Below, piece by piece: positions 47,106 through 63,314 of a DNA stretch of 64,000 nucleotides. The notes beneath the pieces were generated by a model, which was not told where the DNA came from, did not search any database, and worked only from the letters and a program-made list of their open reading frames with translations. Position 1 is the first letter of the stretch, and each line of letters opens with the position of its first letter. The position numbers and the translations under genes were made by a program. The stretch is from a phage: assembly GCA_033580375.1 (NCBI GenBank), contig GCA_033580375.1_4527.1. The stretch is one strand, 5' to 3'.

Positions 47106-47144
47106 TTTATTTCTCCAATTTGGTTGTTTTGTTTTGATAGGTCT

Positions 47145-47173: not shown

Positions 47174-47180
47174 TGTTTTG

Positions 47181-47214
47181 TGAAAAAAATGCACAAAAGG
47201 GAGCCGAAGCTCCC
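47181..47214 (-). terminator. intrinsic terminator after gene 52
   Basis: GGGAGC-UUCG-GCUCCC followed by UUUUGUGCAUUUUUUU on minus strand. Confidence 0.65.
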
Positions 47215-47290
47215 TAATCGCGATTGTCCAACCAATACAGCCAAATCACTAGTGCAGCTATTGCACCGAGAAATCCTAAGGCTAGGGCAC

Positions 47291-48616
47291 TCAAAGTGCC
47301 TCCAAGTCTTTAGTGTACTCTGTCACAACATCAGTAGACTTCCAATACTCGTTTTCTTCTTTCTTAGCTTTAGCTTCTTCTGCTAGTTTACGTGCTTCGT
47401 CGGAAGTGATATGGAAGATGTTAAGACCTACCAGTTTATCGACATGTTCTTTATACATTTCGATTTGTGCTAGCTCTTCAGTCAAAGCTTTACGGGTCTT
47501 GCCTTGAATCACAATTTCGCCACTGATAACTTTTTTGATGAAGTGTGCCTTAGCAAAAGCAAGTTTAAATGCTTTTTCAGATTCAAGGATTTTGTTGTCA
47601 ATACGTTTCTGAACGTAAGTCTTACGGACTTCAACAAAATCTTTGATTAAGTCTACTACATTATCATAGACCGCTAATTTACCCTTTTCATTAATCACTG
47701 TGATGTTTTGTGAACGACGTTCGATGAGACTAAAATCTTTCATGATTTTTTCATGACGTAGCTCTTCATCATCAGGAAGCGAGTACTCTTTACGGAACTT
47801 CACCTTAAACCCAAAGCCGTGTTCACCACAATCGTCTTCCCATGAGATTAGTCCTTTGTCTTCCAACGGGTCAAGAACCTTACTCACATACGTTTCACGG
47901 TCGAATTTATATGGGATTTCAGTTATCTGCATTTGAGTGCGAGATGTGAACTTATATGTTCCGTGAATCTCATAACGCCCATCAACTTCATGTACTTCAC
48001 CACGGAATTCCGGGAATTCAACTTTTGGCTTAGTGACATTTTTACCTTGAAGAGCTTGTAATACTGCCTTTTTGACAGATTTAAAACTATGAGGCAGAAT
48101 ATTTGTTGCGTAACCGGTTGCAATACCGGAGACACCATTCAAAAGAACTGTCGGAATAATAGGAAGATAGAATTTTGGTGGAACGTGTTCTTTATCTTCA
48201 TGAGCTGGAGCATATTCAGTATCTTTATAGACATTATAGAAATTTTTACTTACACGAGCAAAAATATAACGAGATGCTGCAGCTTTTTGGACTGTTCTAG
48301 AACCAAAGTTGCCTTGGCCATCTAACAGTGGATAGTTGTTGTTCCATGTGTTAGCCATCAATGCGCCTGCATCTTGTGCAGAAGATTCACCATGGTGATA
48401 ACCTAAATCTGCAACACCACCCGCAATTGACGCAAGTTTATGAAATTTTTCTTTATTACCACGAGCCAAATCTAATGCACGATGAACCACAAAACGTTGA
48501 ACCGGCTTAAATCCATCAATCATATTTGGGATTGCACGGTTTTCAACGGTGTACATCGCGTATGCTAAGGCTTCGTTATCAATAATACTTTTTAGATTAC
48601 GAGAATTCAATTGCAT
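47291..48616 (-). CDS. 52: DNA topoisomerase II medium subunit gp52
   Basis: 441-aa ORF (T4 gp52 is 442 aa), GyrA-like N-terminal region. Confidence 0.9.
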   Translation of the reverse strand: MQLNSRNLKSIIDNEALAYAMYTVENRAIPNMIDGFKPVQRFVVHRALDLARGNKEKFHKLASIAGGVADLGYHHGESSAQDAGALMANTWNNNYPLLDGQGNFGSRTVQKAAASRYIFARVSKNFYNVYKDTEYAPAHEDKEHVPPKFYLPIIPTVLLNGVSGIATGYATNILPHSFKSVKKAVLQALQGKNVTKPKVEFPEFRGEVHEVDGRYEIHGTYKFTSRTQMQITEIPYKFDRETYVSKVLDPLEDKGLISWEDDCGEHGFGFKVKFRKEYSLPDDEELRHEKIMKDFSLIERRSQNITVINEKGKLAVYDNVVDLIKDFVEVRKTYVQKRIDNKILESEKAFKLAFAKAHFIKKVISGEIVIQGKTRKALTEELAQIEMYKEHVDKLVGLNIFHITSDEARKLAEEAKAKKEENEYWKSTDVVTEYTKDLEAL

Positions 48617-48620
48617 ATTT

Positions 48621-48761
48621 TCACCATATTAATGAACGAATAATCATTATAACATCTGAAATGAAAAGCACTACTTGGATTAGTCCAAACATCACACCGT
48701 AGTACAGAACCGTAAGCAACAACAAGAGCCCGAAGGCTCCTGCTAAGATGTTCTTAATCAT
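48621..48761 (-). CDS. small membrane protein (46 aa), not in ORF track
   Basis: ATG...TGA frame MIKNILAGAFGLLLLLTVLYYGVMFGLIQVVLFISDVIMIIRSLIW; start overlaps the upstream small ORF stop (TAATG). Confidence 0.45.
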   Translation of the reverse strand: MIKNILAGAFGLLLLLTVLYYGVMFGLIQVVLFISDVIMIIRSLIW

Positions 48762-48907
48762 TACTCGCCTTTTAACACGTTAATAAGAGCTAAGACCGCT
48801 AAGGTACCTTGTGATACGGCCTGTTGAAATACTGTTGTTTCGCCCGTAACTAAAGTGTTAACGAATAAAAACGACCAACACAGCAATGCAATAATCCATG
48901 CTACCAT
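48761..48907 (-). CDS. small membrane protein (48 aa), not in ORF track
   Basis: ATG with SD GAGGT; MVAWIIALLCWSFLFVNTLVTGETTVFQQAVSQGTLAVLALINVLKGE; T4 ac/52.1 position. Confidence 0.45.
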   Translation of the reverse strand: MVAWIIALLCWSFLFVNTLVTGETTVFQQAVSQGTLAVLALINVLKGE

Positions 48908-48932
48908 TTTAATTACCTCAAAAATAAATTAA

Positions 48933-48952
48933 AGGCCTAACTTAATAGGTCC
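48933..48952 (-). terminator. possible terminator after ndd
   Basis: Imperfect hairpin GGACCUA...UAGGCCU followed by UUUAAUUUAUUUUU. Confidence 0.3.
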
Positions 48953-48959
48953 GTATAAA

Positions 48960-49406
48960 TTAGTAACTCTGCAGAATGAATTTGAAATTATCAGCCAGAA
49001 GACGGTTCATTTCAGTGAGTGTTTGATATTCTGACGTATGGTTGCGAGTGAATGCCAGAGCCAATTGACCTTTACCATAACCAGTAGTCAGTGGTTTCAT
49101 GTTCTTAGCTGCAACAAAGATTACATCATATTCAGTATTGTTAGTGGCCATGGTACGAGCTAGTTGTGAACGGCCTTGACGAATGTGAGAAAGAATTGCA
49201 TCTAACCCTTGTTTAGAACGTTGACGTCCTACAAAGAATCGTGCTGCTACTTGACGCCAGTCAGATGAACCTTTAACGAAGAAGTAAAAACCTTCACGAG
49301 AACGAAACTCTTTAGAAACTTCAGAACCGTATTCGCCATTACGAACTACTGCAACAACTTCACCGCCAACTTCCAGAAGGTCTTTACGAGTTAAATATTT
49401 GGACAT
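48960..49406 (-). CDS. ndd: nucleoid disruption protein Ndd
   Basis: 148-aa ORF; C-terminal half (RSKQG...LSHIRQ.RSQLART...[38 protein letters not shown]) matches T4 Ndd as recalled. Confidence 0.8.
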
Positions 49407-49450
49407 GCTAATTTCCTCAATTGATTAATGTTTTTGTAATCCATGAGAGC

Positions 49451-49480
49451 ATTATACTCTGCTCTCAAGAGTTTGTACAA
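49451..49480 (-). promoter_or_regulatory. T4-type early promoter for ndd
   Basis: Minus strand (T)TGTACA-N17-TATAAT. Confidence 0.45.
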
Positions 49481-49482
49481 TT

Positions 49483-49683
49483 TTATTCGGCTATATCAGA
49501 ACGTTCAAAAAGCTCTTCAACAGTTAAACATTCAGTGTCATCTTCAATAAAGAATCGAGTCCAACACGTTGGGGCGATACAGTTATGAGTTTGTCCGGCG
49601 ATAGAAGCTACACGAATAAGCTGCTGACCATTATTCAGAACAAATTTTTCGCCAATTTCAACATCTTTAAAAAGCTTAGCCAT
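49483..49683 (-). CDS. hypothetical protein
   Basis: 66-aa ORF, ATG start. Confidence 0.5.
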   Translation of the reverse strand: MAKLFKDVEIGEKFVLNNGQQLIRVASIAGQTHNCIAPTCWTRFFIEDDTECLTVEELFERSDIAE

Positions 49684-49743
49684 TTTGTGTTCCTCATGTT
49701 TCAGTAAGACTACTATACTATAATCCTACCGTGATGTAAACAA

Positions 49744-49854
49744 TTAAATTACATTAAAATATGTTAAAGCCAACCATGTTCCAGTGAACGAACATGCAAT
49801 GTAAAAAACCGTATCACAAATTGTTTTTAGTACAATAAGAAGTGCATTTTTCAT
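49744..49854 (-). CDS. candidate hydrophobic micro-protein (36 aa)
   Basis: ATG with SD GAGGT; MKNALLIVLKTICDTVFYIACSFTGTWLALTYFNVI; ATGA overlap with upstream micro-ORF. Confidence 0.3.
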   Translation of the reverse strand: MKNALLIVLKTICDTVFYIACSFTGTWLALTYFNVI

Positions 49855-49937
49855 AAGTACCTCAATGCAATTGAAAATATTATACAAATCATAGGGATAC
49901 TAAGCAACCATATTCCGATCCACATTTTAGAGCTCAT
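49851..49937 (-). CDS. candidate hydrophobic micro-protein (28 aa)
   Basis: MSSKMWIGIWLLSIPMICIIFSIALRYL; ATGA overlap with the stop of the upstream 87-aa ORF. Confidence 0.3.
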   Translation of the reverse strand: MSSKMWIGIWLLSIPMICIIFSIALRYL

Positions 49938-50197
49938 ATCTCAACTTCCGCGAGTTCCATATATCCTTTGCTGATAACCTCTTTAAGGTCTTTAGAAAGA
50001 ATAACATCAAAATGGTCGTTCATATGTCCATTAACCAGACGAGTTATTTCGGCTTCAGATGACATATAAGGCACGTCCGAGTCCCAATGAGATAGGCCTA
50101 AATGGGTATAAATCATCCCTTCGTCGTCTGCAGTGTTGTACATTGAAACAAACTCACCTGTCACTTTATGTTTTGCGTAGAAAAATTTAAATTTCAT
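49934..50197 (-). CDS. hypothetical protein
   Basis: 87-aa ORF, preceded by a promoter-like sequence. Confidence 0.5.
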   Translation of the reverse strand: MKFKFFYAKHKVTGEFVSMYNTADDEGMIYTHLGLSHWDSDVPYMSSEAEITRLVNGHMNDHFDVILSKDLKEVISKGYMELAEVEI

Positions 50198-50223
50198 GAT
50201 GTTATCCTCTTTTAGATAGGACT

Positions 50224-50253
50224 ACTGTATCATAGTCCTACTTAGTTGTAAAC
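50224..50253 (-). promoter_or_regulatory. candidate early promoter
   Basis: Minus strand GTTTAC-N18-TACAGT (weaker -10). Confidence 0.35.
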
Positions 50254-50265
50254 ACTTTTATGAAA

Positions 50266-50823
50266 TTAAAGTTGAAGATACCACCCGTTGTAGTTGCTCT
50301 TGCGGACGATTTTCTTTAGGTCTTCATGGTCTCCCACGAACTTTATAGAATAAGAGAAGACGTCAGGTGAGGTTTCTTTGACATTCAATATAATAATACA
50401 GTCTGCAACTCGATGATTCAGGAATGGCCCTATGTTGATTCCGTTGCCACCCGGATAATCACCACTGTATCCTGTGGTAACAGAAATCCATTTAGAATCC
50501 ATCTGATGTGTCTTGACTTCTACACGAATTCCACAATATTTGGGATGGGCTAACACGTCCCATGCATATGTGTACGGGTCTTCTACGTCTTCATTACCTT
50601 TATTAACATATCCGTCTAGCCAATTTGCTACTACATACTCTGCAAAGACTGCAACCTTACAACGTCGAACTACATCTTCTTTGTTTTGGTCTGGATTTTG
50701 GCTCAATGAATACCGAGCAGTGTCAGCAATCTTCACTTTCATTTCACTAGTCAAAAACTCATTCGACAGGATAAATGTCGGAAGATTCTTCAGTCTCAAC
50801 AGTCCCAAGTTCGTCTTTACCAT
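50266..50823 (-). CDS. denB: endonuclease IV DenB
   Basis: Track ORF trimmed to ATG (MVKTNLG...) with SD GAGGT, giving 185 aa as in T4; position between rIIB and ndd. Confidence 0.65.
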   Translation of the reverse strand: MVKTNLGLLRLKNLPTFILSNEFLTSEMKVKIADTARYSLSQNPDQNKEDVVRRCKVAVFAEYVVANWLDGYVNKGNEDVEDPYTYAWDVLAHPKYCGIRVEVKTHQMDSKWISVTTGYSGDYPGGNGINIGPFLNHRVADCIIILNVKETSPDVFSYSIKFVGDHEDLKKIVRKSNYNGWYLQL

Positions 50824-51046
50824 AGATACCTCTGATGTGTAGTTCGCCAAAATAAATGCGGTCTCCTTCTTCAAGATAGTTAGCATCTACCGGTGGGATT
50901 TCAATAACAACTTCGTCGCATTCTAACCAGCCATAGTGTGCATCACCAGGATGTTTTACCAATTTAGCACAATAAACTGATTTACACTTATGATGACCAC
51001 GAAGATTAGCAATTTTGGATTCTGATACGTCAAATGGATGAATCAT
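50759..51046 (-). CDS. hypothetical protein (start uncertain)
   Basis: Track ORF starts at TTG inside the terminator hairpin; trimmed to first ATG (MIHPFDV...); overlaps the proposed denB start. Confidence 0.35.
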   Translation of the reverse strand: MIHPFDVSESKIANLRGHHKCKSVYCAKLVKHPGDAHYGWLECDEVVIEIPPVDANYLEEGDRIYFGELHIRGIYGKDELGTVETEESSDIYPVE

Positions 51047-51052
51047 AATTAC

Positions 51053-51084
51053 CCCTAAAGAAAAAAAGGGGACCGAAGTCCCCA
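51053..51084 (-). terminator. intrinsic terminator after rIIB
   Basis: GGGGAC-UUCG-GUCCCC followed by a U7-8 tract on minus strand. Confidence 0.65.
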
Positions 51085-51088
51085 ATTA

Positions 51089-52024
51089 TTATTCTGCAAA
51101 TAATTCAGTAACGTCTGAAATTACTTCATAACGACAAGTACGCATCTTAGCATCGCCATAGTCAACTGGGATAGATACAACATCGCGCGGATGAACTTTA
51201 ACCTTAACAACTTTATCTGAGCTAGAACCAAAGTAACGAATATATGATTTAGCGCAAACATGTAGACCACGGGAGCAGGTTTGCGTATCATCATCGTTAA
51301 CACGAGTACGAGGCATTGAAACAACTTTACCTGGTGAGTTATCAAATGTACCGCTATAGCAATCTAAATAATCTTTACGAACTACTTTCCACGCGTAGAA
51401 ATGCCCATCTTCAGTGATTTCAATATCATTTGCAACCAAGAAGTCGAATAAACGTTGTACAGCTTTTTCGCTCGGGTTTTCTAACAGGTTTTCAAGGAAC
51501 GGCAGATAGAATTTAAAGTCTTCGCCTTTTTCCATGGAATCAATAATACGATTAACCAGACCTGAACGAATTTCTATACCTTGATAAAATAAACTACCAC
51601 CTTCAATAGTAACATTACCATCAACAAACTTAGTAATAGCTTTCTTGACGTTAATAAGTTCAACAGCTTTACTAAGGTTTCCTGCGACCAGATTAGCTTT
51701 AATTTCTTCAAAATTTGCATGACTTGATGGGGTCGCATTGTATGCTACGCGTCCTTCAATGATTGAAATAAATTTAGATGACGCGTTCCATATGATTTCT
51801 GGACGATGTCCGCCGATAATAGGTTCATCATTTTCTGGGACCTGTTCTTCGTCTTCAAATTCAGCGGCTTTCTCTTCAGCTTTAAAATTCTTAACAATCT
51901 TACGAAGAGTATCTGTTGAAATGTCGAAGTAATCGGCAATTTCTTTACGAGTCCATTTGCCTGATTCAACCAGGCCATAAGCTTCTAACTGTTCTTCTTG
52001 GGGCAAGCATTTGATATTGTACAT
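51089..52024 (-). CDS. rIIB: rIIB membrane-associated protein
   Basis: 311-aa ORF (T4 rIIB is 312 aa), synteny rIIA-rIIB. Confidence 0.85.
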   Translation of the reverse strand: MYNIKCLPQEEQLEAYGLVESGKWTRKEIADYFDISTDTLRKIVKNFKAEEKAAEFEDEEQVPENDEPIIGGHRPEIIWNASSKFISIIEGRVAYNATPSSHANFEEIKANLVAGNLSKAVELINVKKAITKFVDGNVTIEGGSLFYQGIEIRSGLVNRIIDSMEKGEDFKFYLPFLENLLENPSEKAVQRLFDFLVANDIEITEDGHFYAWKVVRKDYLDCYSGTFDNSPGKVVSMPRTRVNDDDTQTCSRGLHVCAKSYIRYFGSSSDKVVKVKVHPRDVVSIPVDYGDAKMRTCRYEVISDVTELFAE

Positions 52025-52033
52025 AATGTTTCC

Positions 52034-54247
52034 TTATTTGGCTGCTTCCACAGCCTTCATGAATTTAACGATTTGAGCGACCTGTTCTTTGGAAAGAGTA
52101 CCACGTCGTCCCATGTATTCTGACACAATATGATAATTGGTTTCGAATTCAATAACCATTTTATCATCATTATCGTAAGCATTATCTTTAAGCTTATCGA
52201 AAATTTTAGCACACAATTCTAACTTTTTATTCAGTTCTCTGTTAGTAGCACCTGAGAATCGATTCCATCCCCAACGATTATTTACTGTTGAGAGTTTTGC
52301 AAAATCTTTACTGATTTCTTTGTTTTTAGAGCTAAAATACTTACTAAGGAAGTTAAGCTCTTCATTACGAGTAATATGATTCAAATAAGGTTGAGCTCTA
52401 CGACTTGGTGATACATACTCATCATAATCCACTTTATCGATTAGCGTAATATAGTCGTTAATTGATTTTTCGAACAAGCATTCTACTTCGCCAAGTTTAC
52501 GAACTTTCTTAGCAATCTGTGGACGAACTACAGTGAACTCTTTAATACCTGACAAATCAGCAATACGGGTCAAGAAATTGGAGTCATAGTTCAACCAACC
52601 TTTATCTGCGTCAAGACATTCAGCATTAGAACGATTACGAACTATAGCATAACCTTGGATTTCATCTGCTTCACTTGCCGGAATAAAGAGGTCTTCTGAT
52701 ACCCAAACATCGTTTTCATTCTTAAAGAATCGATGAGCACTTGGCGATTTAGGACGAGGCTCATTAGTCCGTTTCCTGACTTCAATCCATGGCTTAACGA
52801 TTTGTAAAAGCTCTGAAGTCTTGTACATGTTAATGTTGTCGCCATCAAAGATAACTTTAAGGCGTTCCAGAAGTTTCATTGCATCTTCGTCTGTAGGGTC
52901 AACGAATAGTACGCTTTTACCAAAACCGCGTGGAACTTTACCGGTTAATTTAACCTCGTCTTTAGACATTTCAATTGAATTAAGAGCTCGCATTAATGGA
53001 ACGCGTCCCTTAACGTCGTCAATAACAATTTCAACGTTTTTAATGTTAATGCCAATCAGGCTGTTAATTGAAATAGTTGATGATGAGCTACCACTTTCAC
53101 GAATACGACGAAGACGAGGGGATTCAACGATATCGTATACGACGCCAAGATTACACCACTCAGGCCCCATTTTAAAACGTTTGTACAACTCAGAATAAGT
53201 TAGTTGTTCTTTAGAGTATTTCAGTGATTCAATATTAGACCCGGCCTTTTCCATGTATTTACGAGCGGTATAACCAAGAGAATCAATTTCACGGAACACA
53301 TGACGTGGGTATTTACAATCAATCCATTTCTTAGAATCTTCAGCGAACAATTTAGCATCGATTTCTGCAACGCGTTTATGGATATTTGCTACTGTACGTT
53401 TATCAAATGACAACGCTTCACGAGACGGAGCTACATCTAGTTCACCCATAGGGAATTTAATATAAGCTGTAGTGCATCGCGTCATCATCCATGTTTGTTC
53501 TTTAATAACACTTCCGATTGGATATACAATACCGCCGTAAACAGCCATGATATTACCACGTTCACCCCATGGAGCTTCCTTGGCCAAATATACATCGTCA
53601 AATTCTGGGAAGTATTTGATATCTTTAACACCACGAACTTCTGCAATATCACCGAGAGGACGCATAACATAAGCAATTTCGGATGCGAACTTTTCAAAAT
53701 CTTCTGGGTTAACCGGCACAACTACTTCTACACCCGTACGGTCATCAGGGCCCATTTTATCTACGAAGGTTGGCTTAATTTGTGGACCTGTGTCATCTTG
53801 GTAGATTACGTAACCACGAACTTCGCCGTTGTGATAAGACGTAAGGTTAAACGTATCGGTATATGCTAGTGGAGCTTTAGAGCCTAGACCGAATCCACCA
53901 ATGAAATCGTTACTCGATGTTTTAGTTGAAGCAAAATATGAGTTATAGATTCCTGGCTCTTCGTCATTACCTCGAATAGTGAAATCACTCATACCAGGAC
54001 CAAAGTCTCGAACTACAAAGCGTGGGTCTAAACGACCTGGAGCCTGAACAATAAACTTATCAGTGCAACCATTAAGAATTTGTCCATCAATACAGTTTGT
54101 GATTAATTCACGTACACAAGCCAATTCTTTGTTTGTATAAAGGTCATTAGACAAAATCTTATAAACTTTACTATTGCCTTGAATAGTGAATGCCGTGCTC
54201 TTACCGCCTGAACCAATAATCGTTTCTTTAGCCGTTTCAATAATCAT
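52034..54247 (-). CDS. rIIA: rIIA membrane-associated protein
   Basis: 737-aa ORF with N-terminal GHKL-type ATPase-like region; size and synteny match T4 rIIA. Confidence 0.85.
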   Translation of the reverse strand: MIIETAKETIIGSGGKSTAFTIQGNSKVYKILSNDLYTNKELACVRELITNCIDGQILNGCTDKFIVQAPGRLDPRFVVRDFGPGMSDFTIRGNDEEPGIYNSYFASTKTSSNDFIGGFGLGSKAPLAYTDTFNLTSYHNGEVRGYVIYQDDTGPQIKPTFVDKMGPDDRTGVEVVVPVNPEDFEKFASEIAYVMRPLGDIAEVRGVKDIKYFPEFDDVYLAKEAPWGERGNIMAVYGGIVYPIGSVIKEQTWMMTRCTTAYIKFPMGELDVAPSREALSFDKRTVANIHKRVAEIDAKLFAEDSKKWIDCKYPRHVFREIDSLGYTARKYMEKAGSNIESLKYSKEQLTYSELYKRFKMGPEWCNLGVVYDIVESPRLRRIRESGSSSSTISINSLIGINIKNVEIVIDDVKGRVPLMRALNSIEMSKDEVKLTGKVPRGFGKSVLFVDPTDEDAMKLLERLKVIFDGDNINMYKTSELLQIVKPWIEVRKRTNEPRPKSPSAHRFFKNENDVWVSEDLFIPASEADEIQGYAIVRNRSNAECLDADKGWLNYDSNFLTRIADLSGIKEFTVVRPQIAKKVRKLGEVECLFEKSINDYITLIDKVDYDEYVSPSRRAQPYLNHITRNEELNFLSKYFSSKNKEISKDFAKLSTVNNRWGWNRFSGATNRELNKKLELCAKIFDKLKDNAYDNDDKMVIEFETNYHIVSEYMGRRGTLSKEQVAQIVKFMKAVEAAK

Positions 54248-54259
54248 ATTTTTCTCTCA

Positions 54260-54460
54260 TCACAAGTTACGTTTAAAAATTTCTGCTACTTCAAGAAGTT
54301 CTTCTTTAGTGGCTGTATCGGTTTGTATTTTATATCGAATTTCTTTAAAGCGTTCTTTAAAGGACTCTGCTGACTCGATATCAAAAAATCTTTGGATAAG
54401 CCGGAATTCCCGGAGCACTGCTTTATCAAAAAGTTCCAAGTCCACGTTATATGTTCTCAT
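54260..54460 (-). CDS. hypothetical protein (rIIA.1 position)
   Basis: 66-aa ORF with SD AAGAG. Confidence 0.5.
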   Translation of the reverse strand: MRTYNVDLELFDKAVLREFRLIQRFFDIESAESFKERFKEIRYKIQTDTATKEELLEVAEIFKRNL

Positions 54461-54552
54461 AATATTCTCTTCAGTAGATTCCTAGGGCACTATTACTAAA
54501 GACCATATAATCTATCATCTTATGTGTAATAGCGCCTCAGGCGATTCAGGAT

Positions 54553-55653
54553 TTACGCTGTGAAGATTTTATCCCACATTGCAACAACTGCATCTCGGTT
54601 ATACTTCTTCCATACTGCTTCAGCACGTTTAACTCGAGCTTCGTACGTGTCAGTGAATTCTAATACAGCTTTTGTGTAAAGCGCAACTACTTCTTTCTTA
54701 GGAGTAGAGGAATCAATTTCTACACGCACAGTATCTGGGTCATATTCGAATGTCGCATGCGGATAATCCTTAAAAACTAACTGAATTACAGGGACACCTT
54801 TAGAGATGGCTTCAATAGAACTATTCTCTACCGTACCCGTGTCAGGACACGTATTAATAAGTGCTTTAGCTGTTTTAAGACGTTCCATGATTTCACTGTG
54901 TGGAGCATCAATAATAACAGGATACTTAGCTGGTGGTGCCCATTTGCTTGGACAATAACCAATACCATTTTCGCCTAGTGCTTTAATCGCTTCAAGAGCA
55001 ACATCAGTACGACGCATCTTAGTGTCATAACGTTGAGCACTAATAATCAAATCAGTTGCTGGAAGAACTTCAGGTTTCTCATTCAAACAAATAACCGGAT
55101 AATCTTCGGCTTCAAACAACGGATTTGCTCGCCAATAATCATAATCAATTTTGTCAGTCAGACCCGAAGTCATATAACAATATTTACGTTCAAATTCACG
55201 GAAGGCTTTAGTAGGAGCATAACTCTTACCACCATTCTTATGAATTTGAATAGTCTGGTCCCAAATTTGAACAATGCCACGAGATACCGGTTCAAATGGT
55301 GTTGCCATAAAATTCTTATGAACTTTAGAGAGACCTGCGTCTTTAATTGCCTGAACGGTTAGTTTGGTCGGTTCCATTGTAACAACGAAATCGTACTCAT
55401 TAATGCCGGCTAGTTCAACAATCTTACGAGCCATAGTATAACTCATACCTAGACTGAATTTAGTCAGATGACCAACAGGATGGTGTGTAACTTTCCAATC
55501 ACCAAATGTGTCATTATCAAAACCAATATAATCAATATCAGCACCGATGGACACAAGATATTTCAACACATTTAAATGTACTGCTTCAAGACCACCTTGT
55601 ACACGCTCTGGGTTAAACGGGACTGCGCGAGATGGGATAAACATAACTTTCAT
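54553..55653 (-). CDS. putative GT-B fold glycosyltransferase (candidate DNA hydroxymethylcytosine sugar transferase)
   Basis: 366-aa ORF; C-terminal ...TGTVENSSIEAISKGVPVIQL resembles the nucleotide-sugar binding region of GT-B enzymes; occupies the rIIA-39 interval. Confidence 0.45.
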   Translation of the reverse strand: MKVMFIPSRAVPFNPERVQGGLEAVHLNVLKYLVSIGADIDYIGFDNDTFGDWKVTHHPVGHLTKFSLGMSYTMARKIVELAGINEYDFVVTMEPTKLTVQAIKDAGLSKVHKNFMATPFEPVSRGIVQIWDQTIQIHKNGGKSYAPTKAFREFERKYCYMTSGLTDKIDYDYWRANPLFEAEDYPVICLNEKPEVLPATDLIISAQRYDTKMRRTDVALEAIKALGENGIGYCPSKWAPPAKYPVIIDAPHSEIMERLKTAKALINTCPDTGTVENSSIEAISKGVPVIQLVFKDYPHATFEYDPDTVRVEIDSSTPKKEVVALYTKAVLEFTDTYEARVKRAEAVWKKYNRDAVVAMWDKIFTA

Positions 55654-55676
55654 AATTAAGCCTTATTAAAATTAAA

Positions 55677-55696
55677 ATGAAGCTCCCGAAGGAGCT
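55677..55696 (-). terminator. terminator/attenuator hairpin after gene 39
   Basis: AGCUCC-UUCG-GGAGCU overlapping the gene 39 stop, followed by UCAUUUUAAUUUUAAU. Confidence 0.45.
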
Positions 55697-57513
55697 TAGG
55701 ACATCCATTCTTTACGAAGTTCTGAATCATCACCCAACAACATTTCAAAGAGTTCTTTCCAATTTTCAGGAAGTTTAACTACGTCGTACACAGGGTTTTG
55801 AATCATTTCACGATATTCTGACTTTTCAAGGGAGCCCAATCCCTTGATGTATCGAATACTATGCTTAGGCAGTGTATCTTTAGCTTCTTCATACTCAGCT
55901 ACAGTATAAAACCATTTTTGAGATTTGCCAATTTGTGCAATAATTACAGGCGTTTTAACGAAGCGAATACGTCCTTGTTCAAACAATTCAGGCCAATTAC
56001 TAAAGAAAGCAAGCAAAGCCGGATAAATACTTCCAAGGCCGTCATGATCGGCATCGGTCATAATTGCAATATTACGATAGTTCGTATTCTCTGCCTTTTC
56101 ACCAAGAATAAGACCTGTGATAGCACAGATATCAAAGAGCTCTTTGTTCTTCATCATATCAGCATATGACATACCCCAGCTATTCATCACCTTACCACGT
56201 AATGGGAATCCACCGTGTAGTTCACGGTCACGAACATCAATGAGATAACCAATTGCCGAATCACCTTCTGTTAAAAACAATGTCGTATCTGCATCTTTAC
56301 CACATTGGTTAGCTTTAATATGCTTATGAACCTTAGCTTTAGTTGCCTTTTTAGCGGCTTTAGTTTCTGCAGCCTTTTCTGCCGCTAATTTACGAGCTAA
56401 TGCTGCTTCAACAATAGGCATAATCAAGGCTTCGTTTTTAAGAAGTGCCTGAGCAATTTTCTTAGCATCTAATTGGATATGATTACGAATATCACCATAC
56501 GTTGACGTTAAACGTTCTTTAGTCTGAGAATCAAAACGCATGTTACTCATGTCTCTAATAAACATCAACATTGTGAGGCATTCTTTAACACGAGCTTTAG
56601 TGACTTCAATACCCTTATATTTCTTTTTAATACCGGGCAAAAGATGTTCGCAGATATCATCCATTACACATTCAACATGATGACCACCATTTTTAGTATG
56701 GATGTTATTCACATAAGTTAAATGACGGAAGCCATCTGGTGATGTTGTGAATGCTATAGAGACTTTATCATTTTCTTGAATGATGTTATCTTCACCAAAT
56801 TGTTTAGCAAATCGTTTAAAATTGCCATCAACCTTTTTACCATTAAATGTGAACTTGATATCAGGATAAACGACTGCCAATGTTTGAAGTCGGTCTAAAG
56901 TAATATCTAAATAAATTTGAGATAAATTATGCTCTTCAAATGAAGTGAAATCAGGAGTGAAGATTACTTTAGTGCCTTTACCTTTAGATTTCTTAGAAGA
57001 CCATGATTTGTTTTCCATTCCGTTTGAACAGTTAACAGTGATTTCATTTTCACCATCTGACGTGATGCCTGTAAACAACGTAGAGAAGATATTAGTTAAA
57101 CTACTCCCGACGCCGTTCATACCACCAGTCTTGCGTTCAGAGTCATCACCAAAGTTACCACCGGCCTTTGGAATAGTCCAGGCTGCTACAGGCCCAGGAA
57201 TTTGTTCGCCCGTTTGGTCGGTAACTAAACCTTGAGGAATACCACGTCCGTTATCTTCCACCGAAACTTGATTATTTTTAATTTGCACATCAATTTTATT
57301 TGCAAACTTAAATGATGTACGAATAGCTTCATCAACCGAGTTGTCAATAATCTCATCGATTAATTTTACCAGACCAGGAACATATTCAACTTGTTGATAT
57401 TTACCAAACAAAAAACGTTCATGTGCTTCTTTAGCAGAAGAACCAATATACATACCACTACGTTTCTTAATATGTTCTACATCTGACAATACCTTAATTT
57501 CATTTTTAATCAT
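55696..57513 (-). CDS. 39: DNA topoisomerase II large subunit gp39 (uninterrupted 39+60 type)
   Basis: 605-aa ORF, GyrB-like ATPase N-terminus and Toprim region in one frame; SD GAGGAG. Confidence 0.9.
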   Translation of the reverse strand: MIKNEIKVLSDVEHIKKRSGMYIGSSAKEAHERFLFGKYQQVEYVPGLVKLIDEIIDNSVDEAIRTSFKFANKIDVQIKNNQVSVEDNGRGIPQGLVTDQTGEQIPGPVAAWTIPKAGGNFGDDSERKTGGMNGVGSSLTNIFSTLFTGITSDGENEITVNCSNGMENKSWSSKKSKGKGTKVIFTPDFTSFEEHNLSQIYLDITLDRLQTLAVVYPDIKFTFNGKKVDGNFKRFAKQFGEDNIIQENDKVSIAFTTSPDGFRHLTYVNNIHTKNGGHHVECVMDDICEHLLPGIKKKYKGIEVTKARVKECLTMLMFIRDMSNMRFDSQTKERLTSTYGDIRNHIQLDAKKIAQALLKNEALIMPIVEAALARKLAAEKAAETKAAKKATKAKVHKHIKANQCGKDADTTLFLTEGDSAIGYLIDVRDRELHGGFPLRGKVMNSWGMSYADMMKNKELFDICAITGLILGEKAENTNYRNIAIMTDADHDGLGSIYPALLAFFSNWPELFEQGRIRFVKTPVIIAQIGKSQKWFYTVAEYEEAKDTLPKHSIRYIKGLGSLEKSEYREMIQNPVYDVVKLPENWKELFEMLLGDDSELRKEWMS

Positions 57514-57549
57514 GTTGTCTCCTCGTTATGAAGGTATTCTATCATCCGA

Positions 57550-57576
57550 AATCTAAAGCAAAAAGGGCCGAAGCCC
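57550..57576 (-). terminator. intrinsic terminator
   Basis: GGGC-UUCG-GCCC followed by UUUUUGCUUUAG on minus strand. Confidence 0.5.
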
Positions 57577-58002
57577 TTATTTAAATTTAATTTTCTGAAG
57601 TGCATCAATTGCAGCCAAACGCCCTTGTTCACTTTTAACTGTAATGACCACATCGCCTGATATGATCACCGAACCATCAACAAATTCTATAGAGCCTTTT
57701 TTGAAACCGACAGCTGTATCTTGTTCCGGGACTTCTTCAAAGAATTTAAATTCTGCACCATAAAGCAGAATATCACCTTGCATACTATGAATAGTTCGGC
57801 CATAATCGCCTACGGCTTCTACAGCAATAACCGAAACGCCGTAACCAATCATCTCTTCCACAATAAAATCTTTGGACAATAAAGTAGTATGCAGATTAGT
57901 ATTAAGACGTTTACCAGTCGTATTAAGAATTCTCAAGAAATTATCTTCCTGTCCTTTGATAATACGGTATTTCTTGCCAATTTCAAAACCTTTAAAAGCC
58001 AT
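57577..58002 (-). CDS. hypothetical protein
   Basis: 141-aa ORF. Confidence 0.5.
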   Translation of the reverse strand: MAFKGFEIGKKYRIIKGQEDNFLRILNTTGKRLNTNLHTTLLSKDFIVEEMIGYGVSVIAVEAVGDYGRTIHSMQGDILLYGAEFKFFEEVPEQDTAVGFKKGSIEFVDGSVIISGDVVITVKSEQGRLAAIDALQKIKFK

Positions 58003-58004
58003 AA

Positions 58005-58184
58005 TTATCCCTTCTTAAGTAAGTCGTAAAAACCACCGTTCACATGTTTAGGAGCAGAAACCCGACGAGTAGACAGACGGTGACATTCAGGGCAAACATC
58101 GTTTTCTCGTTCAGAAATCCTTTTAATTTTTTCATATTCATGACCACAATCTTCAGATTGACATTTATAGTCGTATAACGGCAT
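58005..58184 (-). CDS. FmdB-like zinc-ribbon protein (59 aa), not in ORF track
   Basis: MPLYDYKCQSEDCGHEYEKIKRISERENDVCPECHRLSTRRVSAPKHVNGGFYDLLKKG; Cys pairs CxxxxC and CxxC; SD AAGGAA. Confidence 0.5.
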   Translation of the reverse strand: MPLYDYKCQSEDCGHEYEKIKRISERENDVCPECHRLSTRRVSAPKHVNGGFYDLLKKG

Positions 58185-58186
58185 TA

Positions 58187-58597
58187 TTATTCCTTAAAAT
58201 GTGCTTTCAACATTTGATACAAAGACCATGCCTGGTCGTTATTTTCGATAGTAATCGTCATCACCGGAAATTCGGTCAATTCATCAAGTTCTCCAGAGTC
58301 TTGCTCTTCAGACGCTTGATATGGATTTCCAACTTCATCAAAAAACTCTGCTTCACTAGTAGAGAGCCAGATAAAGTTTTCATCAAGAATATCACCACCA
58401 GTGGCGTATCCAACCATGCCAGTAGATGTCACAATTTTAGTAGGTCGTCCAAGATGGTCAACATCTAATACTTTAAATGGTTCCATGCCAAGACGTCGTG
58501 CATAAATCCCATTATCAGTGTGGTTTTTAATAAACTCTTCTTGGGCACGTTTATCTTTAAATTGGTACCATGAGTTAACGCGGAATTTATTAGCCAT
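58187..58597 (-). CDS. hypothetical protein
   Basis: Track ORF begins at TTG; trimmed to ATG (MANKFRV...) that overlaps the upstream stop by 1 nt. Confidence 0.5.
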
Positions 58598-58824
58598 TAG
58601 TAAGTTTCCTTCCAATAAGTTGTACCATTTTCAGTGATTTCACGGAAGATACCATAGATAGGCATTTCATCACCGAGTTTTTCGTAAACGTAAACCACTT
58701 CAGTGTAGCATAAAAATTCAGTCCAGTTTTTCTGTACAACAACTAAATCAGGATTAAATAGAACATCTTCAAACTCATCGATGTTTGAATCAGTAGTTAC
58801 GTTTTTAATGATTTGACGTTTCAT
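58597..58824 (-). CDS. hypothetical protein
   Basis: Track ORF trimmed to ATG (MKRQIIKNV...) with strong SD AAGAGGAG. Confidence 0.45.
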
Positions 58825-58881
58825 AATATTCTCCTCTTGTTTTGATAGGTCTATAGTATCATAGCCCATAGTTGTTGTACA

Positions 58882-59406
58882 TCATTTTAGCAAAATAAAA
58901 TCAACTTGTTCTGCCAATGAACGTCTGAACATTAATTGACAACTTCCGAGGATGAAATCAGGTGCTTCATAGACCGCGATGTAGTATCCTTTAGCTTTCA
59001 AGAGTTCAACATCTACCTGGTCATCAAACCATGCATAAACCGCGTCAACACTTTCAAATCCAAAATAGAACCCTTGAGCCCAATCTTCACTCAATTCAAA
59101 TGTGTGCTCAATTCTATAGTATCTTAAGATATTTTTTTCAAGGAGTTTATCTTCATTTACTGTAGGACGATTAGGGACATTATAGTTGTCGCCGTGATGG
59201 TAGAAATTACCTGAGAGTATTCCATGTTTATCAAGGAACTCCCATGTTTCTTCAGAGTTGTCGGTGCCCGACCAACCGTATGGCGAACGAGGTTCTTTAT
59301 TCCAAGAGGTTTCCCAAATTCTGACGGCTTTACCGTCTTCAATAGCAATTCCTGGTAATGATTCACGTTGAGTACAAAAACTACGTTCTACGCGGTAAAC
59401 TAACAT
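58882..59406 (-). CDS. hypothetical protein
   Basis: 174-aa ORF with SD GGAGAA and its own early promoter. Confidence 0.5.
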   Translation of the reverse strand: MLVYRVERSFCTQRESLPGIAIEDGKAVRIWETSWNKEPRSPYGWSGTDNSEETWEFLDKHGILSGNFYHHGDNYNVPNRPTVNEDKLLEKNILRYYRIEHTFELSEDWAQGFYFGFESVDAVYAWFDDQVDVELLKAKGYYIAVYEAPDFILGSCQLMFRRSLAEQVDFILLK

Positions 59407-59432
59407 ATTATTCTCCTCTGGTTGATATGGTT

Positions 59433-59461
59433 ATAATATCAAAACCAGAGGAGAAGTAAAC
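59433..59461 (-). promoter_or_regulatory. T4-type early promoter
   Basis: Minus strand GTTTAC-N17-TATTAT. Confidence 0.5.
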
Positions 59462-59465
59462 AACT

Positions 59466-59885
59466 TTATGCGAAAGCAGCCGGGCTATATTTTTTAATTT
59501 GGAATTCAGGAACTACCATGAACTGACCAGCGAAAACGATGTTATAAAGCTTAACACCATCTTCTACCCAACGGTCGCTAATAAATCCGGCGATTTGCTT
59601 AGTTTTCCATGGCGTTCCATCGGTTGCCGCAGCAATAGTGAATTCGTGGTCTTTTTCAACAGAAACTGATCTGCATAGTCCCCATTTGAACGCTTTTTCT
59701 TCTGGTTCAATGAATTGGCTTGAGACGTAACCAATGTTGCCATCAGCATCACGAACTTTAACTTGATGTGGACTAAAGAGTCCACAACTTACAGAAAGAA
59801 CTTCAACCAACTTCCCAGCAACTTTAGAGCGAGAAGCAACAGGTACATATACGTAATCACCAATAGAGAGATTTGCAATATTCAT
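59466..59885 (-). CDS. hypothetical protein, tandem paralog 1 of 3
   Basis: 139 aa; shares N-terminal SRSKVAGKLVEV and C-terminal GFISDRWVEDGVKLYNIVFAGQF blocks with the next gene. Confidence 0.55.
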   Translation of the reverse strand: MNIANLSIGDYVYVPVASRSKVAGKLVEVLSVSCGLFSPHQVKVRDADGNIGYVSSQFIEPEEKAFKWGLCRSVSVEKDHEFTIAAATDGTPWKTKQIAGFISDRWVEDGVKLYNIVFAGQFMVVPEFQIKKYSPAAFA

Positions 59886-59894
59886 AATAATTCC

Positions 59895-60380
59895 TTAAGC
59901 TTTACGAGGAGACACATAACGAGTGATTTCGGATTCTTTAACAACTCTGAAGTCACCTAAGAATACGATATTGTATAACTTTTCACCATCTTCAACCCAT
60001 TGGTCACTAATGAAGCCACACATAGTATCAGTTTTGCTTGGATAACCGTATTCATCGATGAAGTCAAATTCTTTATCAGTCTGGAATTCAACACCTTTAC
60101 ACAAGGCCCATTTGAACTGTGCATTATGCTCTGTGGATTCAACTTTTTCTCTTGAAGCAAAAGCACTACTCACAGGCGTTTCCAAGAACTTTGCACGAAC
60201 ATAAGCAAATTTGGTTTCCTGTGTCCCAAAACTAGGAATAATACGAACTTTTACCTCAGAATCTTCATCTTTAACGCCTTCTTTAAGTTGAATACTTACA
60301 ACTTCGACCAATTTTCCTGCGGCTTTAGAACGAGATTTGTTAGATACGCGAACGATTTCACCAATAATACCAAGATTCAT
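59895..60380 (-). CDS. hypothetical protein, tandem paralog 2 of 3
   Basis: 161 aa; SRSKAAGKLVEV ... GFISDQWVEDGEKLYNIVFLGDF. Confidence 0.55.
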   Translation of the reverse strand: MNLGIIGEIVRVSNKSRSKAAGKLVEVVSIQLKEGVKDEDSEVKVRIIPSFGTQETKFAYVRAKFLETPVSSAFASREKVESTEHNAQFKWALCKGVEFQTDKEFDFIDEYGYPSKTDTMCGFISDQWVEDGEKLYNIVFLGDFRVVKESEITRYVSPRKA

Positions 60381-60412
60381 AATTTCTCTCTCTCTTTGTT
60401 TAAATTGAATTC

Positions 60413-60442
60413 ATTATACTCCGTCCATCCTTGGATGTACAA
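60413..60442 (-). promoter_or_regulatory. candidate early promoter
   Basis: Minus strand TGTACA-N17-TATAAT; shares CCAAGGATGG..GGAGTATAAT with the promoter at 60971-61000. Confidence 0.4.
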
Positions 60443-60444
60443 CA

Positions 60445-60939
60445 TTAATTAAGGATATTAACCACAGCACTACGTGGAACTACACTAAAATCACCTGCAT
60501 GAACAACGTTCAGAAGTTCAACACCGTCTTCAATCCACTGGTCAGTTACCCATCCATTTACTGGATAAGCGAACGGGCGTCGAATTGAAACATATTTACA
60601 CAGCAAATCAGTAGGCTCAATAGGCTTAATCAGAGTACCGTACATACAAGCGATATCCATATCAATACAGACGTCTTTAACGGGTTCTACTTCTTCAATC
60701 AACAGTTCAAAGTCGGTGCTTGGAAGGGCGGTAGTAGAAATTGTATCGTATGAATTTTTAATTTCTAAGAATAACCAAGGGCCTTCAGCTTGTTTGATGA
60801 AGTTAACAATAGTGAAACTATTACCTTGAGTGGCACCTAAAATTTCACAAAACTTTTCGTAAGCTCGCACTGAAGCACTGTACCAGTTGATTTGTTTTTC
60901 GTCTTTCAGGATGTAAGTAGCCGTAGTATTGATATTCAT
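60445..60939 (-). CDS. hypothetical protein, tandem paralog 3 of 3 (C-terminal domain only)
   Basis: 164 aa; C-terminal GWVTDQWIEDGVELLNVVHAGDF matches paralogs 1 and 2. Confidence 0.55.
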   Translation of the reverse strand: MNINTTATYILKDEKQINWYSASVRAYEKFCEILGATQGNSFTIVNFIKQAEGPWLFLEIKNSYDTISTTALPSTDFELLIEEVEPVKDVCIDMDIACMYGTLIKPIEPTDLLCKYVSIRRPFAYPVNGWVTDQWIEDGVELLNVVHAGDFSVVPRSAVVNILN

Positions 60940-60970
60940 AATGTTTTTCCTGTTTGGTTAAGATAGAAAG

Positions 60971-61000
60971 ATTATACTCCAACCATCCTTGGTTGTAAAC
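60971..61000 (-). promoter_or_regulatory. T4-type early promoter
   Basis: Minus strand GTTTAC-N18-TATAAT. Confidence 0.5.
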
Positions 61001-61005
61001 TGATT

Positions 61006-61683
61006 TTATCGCTGTTTTACACTTAACGGGTCAGGATTCTCAGGGACATCTTCAAGACCAAGCGCATAACGCTGAGCATATTTTAACATCAAAATATCTT
61101 TAGCACAATCATGAATACTATCATGGGCAACGAATCCTTTTAGCGTACCCATCGGTAATGGACACATACTTAATCCTCGTGTCAACGAGTAAGCTTCGAT
61201 TGCCGTACGAATATCGCGTTGAGCCCAGAATTTAACCGGTTCTAATTTATCAGTATCAATATCTGGTTCAAGAACACCTTCATCACGATAGAGGTCACGA
61301 ATCAAATCGACCAAGATCGGGAAGTCAAAGCTCATACCACGGCACCACATTTGTGATTTCCATTGGTCAACTTTATTAGCTCGACAATAATCTAAAAAGA
61401 TTTTAATGCCTTCAAGCGTAGTGACATCGTCTTCAGACGGGGCCAGGTTTTTACGTGCTTCTGCCGATTGTTCTTTCCACCATTTCATAGTGGATTTAGC
61501 GAAAACTCGCTTCCCTTTTTGAGAAGCTAAATTAAATTTAATTCGCTTACCTCGTTGAACAAGTTCTTCGAATGTTTCAACAATTTCAGGGTCGGAATTA
61601 TATGCAATAACCGCAAGGTCAATAACAGCCGCTTTTGATGTATTGCCGAATGTTTCAAAATCTATAATAACATCAGTGCTCAT
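61006..61683 (-). CDS. dexA: exonuclease A (DEDDh 3'-5' exonuclease)
   Basis: 225-aa ORF (T4 DexA is 227 aa), N-terminal IIDFETFG motif, next to dda. Confidence 0.8.
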   Translation of the reverse strand: MSTDVIIDFETFGNTSKAAVIDLAVIAYNSDPEIVETFEELVQRGKRIKFNLASQKGKRVFAKSTMKWWKEQSAEARKNLAPSEDDVTTLEGIKIFLDYCRANKVDQWKSQMWCRGMSFDFPILVDLIRDLYRDEGVLEPDIDTDKLEPVKFWAQRDIRTAIEAYSLTRGLSMCPLPMGTLKGFVAHDSIHDCAKDILMLKYAQRYALGLEDVPENPDPLSVKQR

Positions 61684-61692
61684 AATTTTCTC

Positions 61693-63006: not shown

Positions 63007-63314
63007 CGTAAAGTCCCTGCAATTGGAATACTAACAATACGGCCTGTGTCCAGGATTCGTTGATATAATCTTTGCGTCTCCGCATCTAGTTTAATGTGTT
63101 TCATTTCAAGCTTATTAAACCAGAACTTACGCGGAGTTTCGACCATTCTTAGAACTCCCATTTTTAAATCTGTTTTATACTGTGTTTTCAAAGTATCGAA
63201 AACTTTATCTGCAATATCCTTTCTAAAAAATACTGCAGGACGATGCTCATCAAGTGGAACCGGGACAGTAAATCCTTCCATATCTCGATAAACTATTGCA
63301 TATACATAAACCAT
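63003..63314 (-). CDS. hypothetical protein (dda.1 position)
   Basis: 103-aa ORF, ATGA overlap with dda. Confidence 0.5.
   Translation of the reverse strand: MVYVYAIVYRDMEGFTVPVPLDEHRPAVFFRKDIADKVFDTLKTQYKTDLKMGVLRMVETPRKFWFNKLEMKHIKLDAETQRLYQRILDTGRIVSIPIAGTLR

What the first reader, a model, noticed from the sequence alone, without database searches (positions are those of the whole stretch)
54553..55653. GT-B type glycosyltransferase between rIIA.1 and gene 39
A 366-aa early gene with a C-terminal segment (TGTVENSSIEAISKGVPVIQL) typical of the nucleotide-sugar-binding half of GT-B glycosyltransferases. It does not resemble T4 alpha- or beta-glucosyltransferase as far as I can recall them, and T4 has no such gene at this locus. 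T-even phages with hydroxymethylcytosine DNA use dedicated sugar transferases for anti-restriction, so this is a candidate alternative DNA-modification enzyme. It is flanked by a hairpin after gene 39 and an inverted repeat before rIIA.1.
Basis: partly seen in the sequence, partly recalled or inferred. Interest (0 to 1): 0.55.

Follow-up and report, generated by a model that had tools for sequence, protein, structure and literature searches.

The report
Known phage DNA arabinosyltransferase (RB69 gp3)

Summary
A 366-aa ORF lies at 54553..55653 (-) between rIIA.1 and an unsplit gene 39, with a UUCG hairpin upstream and an 11-bp-arm inverted repeat downstream.

The window is from a Mosigvirus (RB69-like phage). 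The protein is 98.6% identical to RB69 ORF003c/gp3. It is about 98% identical to the phage HY126 glycosyltransferase, solved apo and with UDP (PDB 9IQZ/9IR0, released 2025).

Thomas et al. 2018 proposed this gene as the RB69 arabinosyltransferase. Work from 2025-26 shows Mosigvirus DNA carries mono- and di-arabinosyl-5-hydroxycytosine, not hmC. That work assigns gp3 as the putative second, chain-extending arabinosyltransferase.

My distribution data fit that role. The family occurs only in Mosigvirus (one copy, two sugars) and in Acinetobacter T4-like phages (two copies inside the arabinosylation cluster, three sugars). The "first" transferase family is much more widespread.

Verdict: interpretation supported, thing already known, low interest.

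The parts
54553..55653 (-). CDS, 366 aa. Orthologue of RB69 ORF003c/gp3 and of the phage HY126 glycosyltransferase (PDB 9IQZ/9IR0). GT-B (GT4-like) UDP-sugar transferase and putative second DNA arabinosyltransferase.
54778..54840 (-). Codons for residues 272-292 (TGTVENSSIEAISKGVPVIQL). This is the near-invariant nucleotide-sugar-binding block of the C-terminal Rossmann domain, the region of the GT4 'EX7E' helix. Here the spacing is E276-x4-E281.
   Evidence: Invariant columns in alignments A1, A2 and A3. The position in the model is strand 264-268 followed by helix 277-284. Assigning it to donor binding is inference from the GT-B fold and from the UDP complex of the orthologue (9IR0).
55661..55664 (-). 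Shine-Dalgarno-like AAGG, 7 nt upstream of the ATG.
   Evidence: Read directly from the sequence.
55680..55697 (-). UUCG-tetraloop hairpin (7-bp stem) overlapping the gene 39 stop codon and followed by a U-rich tract. Terminator-like or an mRNA-stabilising element between gene 39 and the transferase gene.
   Evidence: Annotated as a putative terminator in phage ATK47.
54481..54541 (-). Long stem-loop (11-bp perfect or near-perfect arms plus extensions) in the 92-nt spacer between the transferase stop codon and the rIIA.1 start.
   Evidence: RNA fold dG -28.1 kcal/mol, z -3.47, 0 of 200 shuffles as stable. Function not tested.
54260..54460 (-). rIIA.1, the downstream flanking gene (context only).
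   Evidence: PF24210 at 2e-30.
55696..57513 (-). Gene 39, the unsplit topoisomerase II large subunit and upstream flanking gene (context only).
   Evidence: Pfam DNA_gyraseB, HATPase_c and Toprim.

Best explanation
The ORF encodes the Mosigvirus DNA arabinosyltransferase known as RB69 ORF003c/gp3 (HY126 glycosyltransferase, PDB 9IQZ/9IR0).

It is a soluble two-Rossmann-domain GT-B enzyme of GT4-like architecture. Its C-terminal domain binds a UDP-sugar, most likely UDP-arabinofuranose. Phage enzymes encoded about 20 kb away, outside this window, make that donor.

After replication, another transferase (RB69 gp46:47 type) attaches the first arabinose to the 5-hydroxyl of 5-hydroxycytosine in phage DNA. 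This enzyme then adds a second arabinose onto the first, giving the di-arabinosyl-5-hydroxycytosine that dominates Mosigvirus DNA. The bulkier sugar coat shields the DNA from restriction enzymes and some CRISPR-Cas systems.

Shown here: gene reality, orthology, GT-B fold and phyletic pattern. Shown in the literature: UDP binding by the 98%-identical orthologue, the mono/di-arabinosyl-5hoC chemistry of Mosigvirus DNA, and in vitro arabinose addition to DNA by the Acinetobacter-phage paralogues with UDP-Araf. Inferred: that this protein performs specifically the second addition, and that it acts on polymeric DNA.
For: - Orthology: 361/366 identical to RB69p003. About 98% identical over the full length to PDB 9IQZ/9IR0, 'phage HY126 glycosyltransferase' apo and 'with UDP'. 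Same synteny, rIIA.1 - GT - 39, in RB69, ESh27, ATK47 and Bas46.
- Pathway association: in Acinetobacter phage DLP1 the two homologues (42% and 40% identity) sit inside the arabinosylation cluster. That cluster also holds A5P isomerase, NDP-sugar pyrophosphorylase, a HAD phosphatase, a ThyA-like 5hodCMP synthase, the first GT and a kinase. RB69 carries the same cluster at the T4 gene 42/b-gt locus and lacks a-gt at the 47-55 locus.
- Copy number tracks sugar number. The family is found only in Mosigvirus (one copy; DNA is mono- plus di-arabinosylated) and in Acinetobacter T4-like phages (two copies; tri-arabinosylated), 212 records in all. The first-GT family is in 349 records, including Klebsiella, Serratia, Proteus, Yersinia and Enterobacter phages that lack this family.
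- Literature: Thomas 2018 proposed ORF003c as the arabinosyltransferase (PMC6024577). Lee et al. 2026 list RB69p003 as 'beta-arabinosyltransferase 2'. They show DLP3 gp76+gp77 add a third arabinose to RB69 DNA with UDP-Araf (PMC13326640). [quoted passage not shown] Bas46/47 are doubly arabinosylated (PMC12923530).
- Selection: dN/dS about 0.04 versus RB69. None of the substitutions relative to RB69 or HY126 touches a family-invariant column of alignment A2.
Against: - I found no accessible text reporting a direct assay of RB69 gp3 or this protein. In PMC13326640 its role is explicitly a proposal.
- The two papers most likely to hold the experiment are not in the library: He et al. 2026 Nat Chem Biol and Mahler et al. 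2025 Cell Host Microbe.
- DLP3 gp76 and gp77 were inactive individually and worked only together. A lone family member may therefore need a partner.
- The closest structural neighbours are retaining GT4 enzymes, while the literature labels the second linkage beta. The stereochemical course is unresolved.
- The rest of the pathway lies outside this 64-kb window, so its presence in this particular phage is inferred from relatives that are at least 97% identical.
- No Pfam or NCBIfam glycosyltransferase model reaches significance.
Confidence: 0.78

Rival explanations
1. It is the primary base-modifying transferase, attaching the first arabinose directly to the modified cytosine. This was the original 2018 proposal and is the BASEL annotation 'hmC-arabinosyltransferase'.
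Against: A different GT family (RB69 gp46:47 / DLP gp79 type) lies next to the 5hodCMP synthase in every arabinosylating phage. It is found in 349 records, and Lee et al. report that mono-arabinosylated Thanatos encodes a single syntenic ara-GT of this type. The gp3 family is limited to lineages with two or three sugars. The modified base is 5-hydroxycytosine, not hmC. DLP3 homologues of this family extended already-arabinosylated DNA and showed no activity on bare 5hoC DNA.
Confidence: 0.12
2. It is a glycosyltransferase for a non-DNA acceptor, such as a host envelope lipid or polysaccharide, a small molecule or a protein, and is only coincidentally present in arabinosylating phages.
For: The best structural neighbours act on lipids, small molecules or sugars: PimA, BshA, tetrahydrobiopterin glucosyltransferase and sucrose-phosphate synthase. 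In Mosigvirus the gene sits about 20 kb from the arabinosylation cluster. One record annotates it as a PimA-like mannosyltransferase (H10).
Against: In Acinetobacter phages both paralogues are embedded in the DNA arabinosylation cluster, and the DLP3 pair modifies DNA in vitro. The family exists essentially only in such phages: 11 representatives among 1.84 billion proteins. The number of copies parallels the number of sugars on the DNA.
Confidence: 0.06
3. It is a divergent glucosyltransferase acting on hydroxymethylcytosine, a functional analogue of T4 a-gt/b-gt placed at a new locus.
For: It has a GT-B fold and binds UDP like AGT and BGT. The genomic background is T-even-like.
Against: Mosigvirus DNA contains arabinose on 5-hydroxycytosine and no glucosyl-hmC (PMC13326640, PMC13390438). 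The gene 42 homologue in RB69 is a 5hodCMP synthase. There is no sequence similarity to a-gt or b-gt.
Confidence: 0.02

Closest known systems
RB69 ORF003c / gp3 (NP_861693.1), putative 'beta-arabinosyltransferase 2'
   Same: 361/366 residues identical, same length, same position between rIIA.1 and gene 39.
   Different: Five conservative or peripheral substitutions (E16D, T56N, N85H, I230A, T327I), none in family-invariant columns.
Phage HY126 glycosyltransferase, PDB 9IQZ (apo) and 9IR0 (UDP complex), released 2025-07-16. From the HY126 'Afh' arabinofuranosyl-hydroxycytosine pathway work (He et al. 2026, Nat Chem Biol, not readable here).
   Different: Six substitutions (E16D, N85H, Y158H, G163A, I230V, S316F). 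I could not read which reaction the authors assigned to it.
Acinetobacter phage DLP3 gp77 and gp76 (DLP1 ADLP1_075/074), arabinosyltransferases 2/3
   Same: Same family (42% and 40% identity over the full length). UDP-Araf-dependent extension of arabinosylated 5hoC in DNA has been shown in vitro for the pair.
   Different: Two paralogues are encoded inside the arabinosylation cluster and make a tri-arabinosyl product. Mosigvirus has one copy, at a distant locus, and stops at two sugars.
GT4-type GT-B glycosyltransferases (PimA 2GEJ, BshA 6N1X/3MBO, sucrose-phosphate synthase 6KIH, BH4 glucosyltransferase 5ZER)
   Different: Only 11-14% identity. No Pfam GT4 or Glycos_transf_1 hit. The canonical EX7E spacing is absent. 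There is a family-specific conserved segment at residues 117-151. The acceptor is a sugar on DNA.
T4 alpha-glucosyltransferase (a-gt, 1Y6F) and beta-glucosyltransferase (b-gt)
   Different: No sequence similarity. Different loci. The sugar is glucose rather than arabinofuranose. They act on the hmC hydroxymethyl group, whereas this enzyme probably acts on a pre-attached sugar.

Membership tests
GT-B fold glycosyltransferases | Two Rossmann-like beta/alpha/beta domains with an inter-domain cleft | tested here: met
GT-B fold glycosyltransferases | The C-terminal domain binds the nucleotide of an NDP-sugar donor | not testable with these tools
   Not assayed here. The 98%-identical HY126 protein was deposited in complex with UDP (9IR0). 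The conserved 272-292 block lies in the C-terminal domain.
CAZy GT4 / Pfam Glycos_transf_1 (PF00534) and Glyco_trans_4 | A significant match to the family HMMs | tested here: not met
   There are no Pfam or NCBIfam hits for the protein or its homologues. Only sub-threshold hints appear: PF20706 at E 0.003-0.07 in two relatives, and PF00534/PF13692 at E 0.01-0.05 in the borderline protein P0015.
CAZy GT4 / Pfam Glycos_transf_1 (PF00534) and Glyco_trans_4 | EX7E motif in the C-terminal domain | tested here: not met
   The sequence shows E276-NSSI-E281 (E-x4-E). The residue eight positions before E281 is G273. A structural equivalent cannot be excluded.
RB69 gp3 / HY126 GT family (PHROG 8302) | Full-length homology to the family | tested here: met
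   PHROG 8302 at 3e-222 over residues 1-366. 98.6% identical to RB69p003 and about 98% to 9IQZ.
RB69 gp3 / HY126 GT family (PHROG 8302) | Conserved position between rIIA.1 and gene 39 in Mosigvirus | tested here: met
Phage DNA arabinosyltransferases of the 5-hydroxycytosine pathway | The genome also encodes a 5hodCMP synthase, the first arabinosyltransferase and UDP-arabinose biosynthesis genes | tested here: inconclusive
   Those genes fall outside the 64-kb window. They are present in RB69 and, in the Acinetobacter phages, directly adjacent to the family members. The first-GT gene is present in Mosigvirus records generally.
Phage DNA arabinosyltransferases of the 5-hydroxycytosine pathway | Transfers arabinose from UDP-Araf to (arabinosyl-)5hoC in DNA | not testable with these tools
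   In the readable literature this is shown only for the paralogue pair DLP3 gp76+gp77. For gp3 it is a proposal.
T4 a-gt / b-gt DNA glucosyltransferases | Sequence homology to a-gt or b-gt | tested here: not met
   BLASTP E>7. hhalign probability 0.3% and 0.2%.
T4 a-gt / b-gt DNA glucosyltransferases | Location at the 47-55 (a-gt) or 42-uvsX (b-gt) locus | tested here: not met
   The gene lies between rIIA.1 and 39. The T4 loci are shown. RB69 has no a-gt between 47 and a-gt.2.

The most novel reading that the evidence does not exclude
The single Mosigvirus copy of this family may be a stand-alone, sugar-on-sugar DNA arabinofuranosyltransferase. It would use a GT4-like (normally retaining) scaffold to make the reported beta linkage. 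It would recognise its DNA-borne acceptor through the family-specific, near-invariant segment 117-151. It may have been acquired separately from the core pathway as a modular 'upgrade' that lengthens the sugar coat. If the published structural work has not already settled the stereochemical course and the acceptor-recognition mode, these would be new enzymology.
Probability: 0.2. Interest if true: 0.35.

Novelty: already known. Interest (0 to 1): 0.12.

Why it matters
DNA arabinosylation is a recently clarified alternative to T4-type glucosylation. It protects phage DNA from type II restriction, the Brig1 glycosylase and some CRISPR-Cas systems, while exposing it to GmrSD/BrxU-type enzymes. 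The gene matters for predicting which defence systems a therapeutic Mosigvirus will evade and for engineering such phages. However, the gene, its fold, its structure and its probable role are already in the literature and in the PDB. This window adds only another near-identical allele.

Tried and rejected
- Sequence-profile routes to a function all failed. Pfam, NCBIfam and PADLOC gave no hits. A family profile against all PDB sequences hit only 9IQZ. hhalign against T4 a-gt and b-gt gave nothing.
- Single-sequence AlphaFold failed (pLDDT 38). The model became usable only with a 7-sequence alignment.
- Deepening the alignment was limited by the family's size. I found 5-6 clusters at 90% identity and 11 representatives among 1.84 billion proteins.
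- A dedicated promoter was looked for and not found. There is no good sigma-70-like site and no MotA box within 450 nt upstream, so 'early gene' remains unverified.
- I tried to read the two most relevant experimental papers, Mahler 2025 and He 2026. Neither is held. Searches for 9IQZ, Aat/Bas46 and AfhE/AfhF gave only citing papers or noise.
- Scans for tRNAs and Rfam families in the window were empty.
- I considered and rejected the idea that it is a T4-type hmC glucosyltransferase. I also rejected, as less likely, the idea that it is the first base-modifying transferase (see rivals).

Full report
**Observation.** Downstream on the coding strand lie rIIA.1 (54260..54460; PF24210, 2e-30) and rIIA (52034..54247). 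Upstream lies a 605-aa unsplit topoisomerase II large subunit, gene 39 (55696..57513; GyrB, HATPase and Toprim domains).

Both flanking structures exist. A 7-bp UUCG-tetraloop hairpin, AAGCTCC-TTCG-GGAGCTT (55697..55680), overlaps the gene 39 stop codon and is followed by a U-rich tract. The ATK47 record annotates it as a putative terminator. A much stronger stem-loop with 11-bp arms (54541..54481) lies in the spacer before rIIA.1, with dG -28.1 kcal/mol, z -3.5 and no shuffle folding as well.

An AAGG Shine-Dalgarno sits 7 nt before the ATG. I found no promoter-like site of its own. 'Early gene' is therefore plausible through read-through from gene 39 but was not shown.

**Source and gene reality.** The locus is 97-99% identical at the DNA level to 164 phage records, all Mosigvirus (RB69-like). 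The best match is Shigella phage ESh27 at 98.9%. The protein differs from RB69 ORF003c (RB69p003) at 5 of 366 residues. Across the ORF there are 35 synonymous and 5 non-synonymous codon differences to RB69. This gives dN/dS of about 0.04, so the gene is under strong purifying selection.

T4 has no counterpart here. Its locus reads rIIA.1 - 60 - 60.1 - mobA - 39.

**What the protein is.** Sequence-profile libraries are blind to it. There is no Pfam, NCBIfam or PADLOC hit, and only PHROG 8302, 'unknown function'.

The family is also very small. It has 5-6 clusters at 90% identity among 5.8 billion proteins. A full HMMER profile search of 1.84 billion proteins returned only 11 representatives.

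A search of PDB sequences found a near-identical solved protein, 9IQZ/9IR0. Foldseek describes these as 'phage HY126 glycosyltransferase' and 'phage HY126 glycosyltransferase with UDP', released 2025-07-16.

Foldseek agrees. At the sequence level there is nothing in common with T4 a-gt or b-gt: BLASTP E>7 and hhalign probability below 1%.

It lies in the C-terminal Rossmann domain, where GT-B enzymes bind the donor. The canonical GT4 EX7E spacing is not kept (E276-x4-E281). R208-x5-R214 resembles the GT4 diphosphate-binding pair; this last point is inference.

**What it does.** The literature already covers this gene.
- Thomas et al. 2018 found arabinose in RB69 DNA. Using custom HMMs, HHpred and Phyre2, they nominated ORF003c as the arabinosyltransferase (PMC6024577).
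- Lee et al. 2026 showed that the base is 5-hydroxycytosine, made as 5hodCMP by a flavin-dependent ThyA homologue. The arabinose is ether-linked to it. RB69 DNA carries mono- and di-arabinosylated forms.
- Lee et al. list RB69p003 as putative 'beta-arabinosyltransferase 2' and gp46:47 as transferase 1. They state this as a proposal (PMC13326640).
- The same paper shows that the Acinetobacter phage DLP3 proteins gp76 and gp77, together, add a third arabinose to RB69 DNA from UDP-Araf in vitro.
- The Durham-collection paper reports a Mosigvirus with mono:di at 1:4. [quoted passage not shown]
- Bas46 and Bas47 are doubly arabinosylated according to Mahler et al. 2025, as cited in PMC12923530. The Bas46 record annotates this gene as 'putative hmC-arabinosyltransferase'.
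- The HY126 structures belong to the work of He et al. 2026 on the 'Afh' pathway, cited. I could not read that paper or Mahler et al..

**Independent support from distribution and context.** tblastn finds the family in 212 phage records. About 156 are Mosigvirus, with one copy at 95% identity or above. Fifty-five are Acinetobacter T4-like phages, with two copies at about 42% and 40%. One is a Tegunavirus.

In Acinetobacter phage DLP1 the two copies sit inside the arabinosylation cluster. Their neighbours are arabinose-5-phosphate isomerase, the NDP-sugar pyrophosphorylase, a HAD phosphatase, the ThyA homologue, the first transferase and a nucleotide kinase.

The first-transferase family has no similarity to this protein. 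It is much more widespread, at 349 records. These include Klebsiella, Serratia, Proteus, Yersinia and Enterobacter phages, and other Escherichia phages that lack the gp3 family.

Copy number therefore tracks sugar number. Phages with no copy carry one sugar, as for Thanatos, which is mono-arabinosylated with a single transferase. One copy goes with two sugars in Mosigvirus, and two copies with three in DLP3. This is what a chain-extending transferase predicts, and it argues against this protein being the base-modifying enzyme.

RB69 also lacks a-gt at the 47-55 locus. It carries the gp45-55 arabinosylation cluster at the position of T4 gene 42/b-gt. No canonical glucosyltransferase is available to explain the modification.

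**Caveats.** No accessible text reports a direct assay of gp3 itself. The DLP3 paralogues were inactive singly. The nearest structural neighbours are retaining enzymes, while the second linkage is described as beta. The remainder of the pathway lies outside this window.

Residues 117-151 are nearly invariant in the family yet poorly modelled, with pLDDT below 50. I interpret this segment as a family-specific acceptor-recognition element, but that is inference.

**Verdict.** Two corrections apply. The chemistry is arabinose on 5-hydroxycytosine, and this is probably the second-step enzyme. The gene is already known, proposed in 2018 with a structure deposited in 2025 and its pathway role discussed in 2025-26. 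Interest is therefore low.

Noticed in passing
window 59466..59885, 59895..60380, 60445..60939 (all minus strand): Three tandem paralogues of the MotB 'modifier of transcription' family (PF17613; E 3e-21, 5e-53, 1e-08). T4 has a single motB at the equivalent place. ESh27 annotates three adjacent 'transcriptional regulators'.
   Followed up: partly
window 55696..57513 (-): Gene 39 is one unsplit 605-aa topoisomerase II large subunit. In T4 the same protein is split into gp39 and gp60 by the mobA/60.1 insertion, with the gene 60 translational bypass. This is known for RB69. It means the transferase gene occupies the position taken by gene 60 in T4.
   Followed up: partly
window 57563..57578: A second UUCG-tetraloop hairpin (AAGGGC-TTCG-GCCCTT) lies just upstream of the gene 39 start. 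It scores as terminator-like on both strands. It has the same style of element as the hairpin after gene 39.
   Followed up: no
window 54481..54541 (-): The stem-loop between the transferase gene and rIIA.1 is unusually stable for its composition (dG -28 kcal/mol, z -3.5). It has no U-tract after it. It could be an RNA processing or stability element, or a translational element for rIIA.1. Conservation in other Mosigvirus was not examined separately.
   Followed up: partly
residues 117-151 of the 54553..55653 protein: The segment ATPFEPVSRGIVQIWDQTIQIHKNGGKSYAPTKAF is nearly invariant across the family down to 36% overall identity. It is the least confident part of the AlphaFold model, with pLDDT 30-41. 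It is probably a family-specific acceptor-binding element not represented in other GT-B structures.
   Followed up: no
L004 (Acinetobacter phage DLP1) 1076..8296; phage collection: The 'first' arabinosyltransferase family (DLP1_077 / RB69 gp46:47 type) occurs in 349 phage records across many enterobacterial T4-like genera. This is far beyond the 212 records holding the gp3-type family. It suggests many phages carry only mono-arabinosylated DNA or use other, unidentified extension enzymes.
   Followed up: partly
window 1..64000: There are no tRNA genes and no Rfam family at gathering threshold anywhere in the 64-kb window. rIIA (737 aa) has no Pfam match at all.
   Followed up: yes
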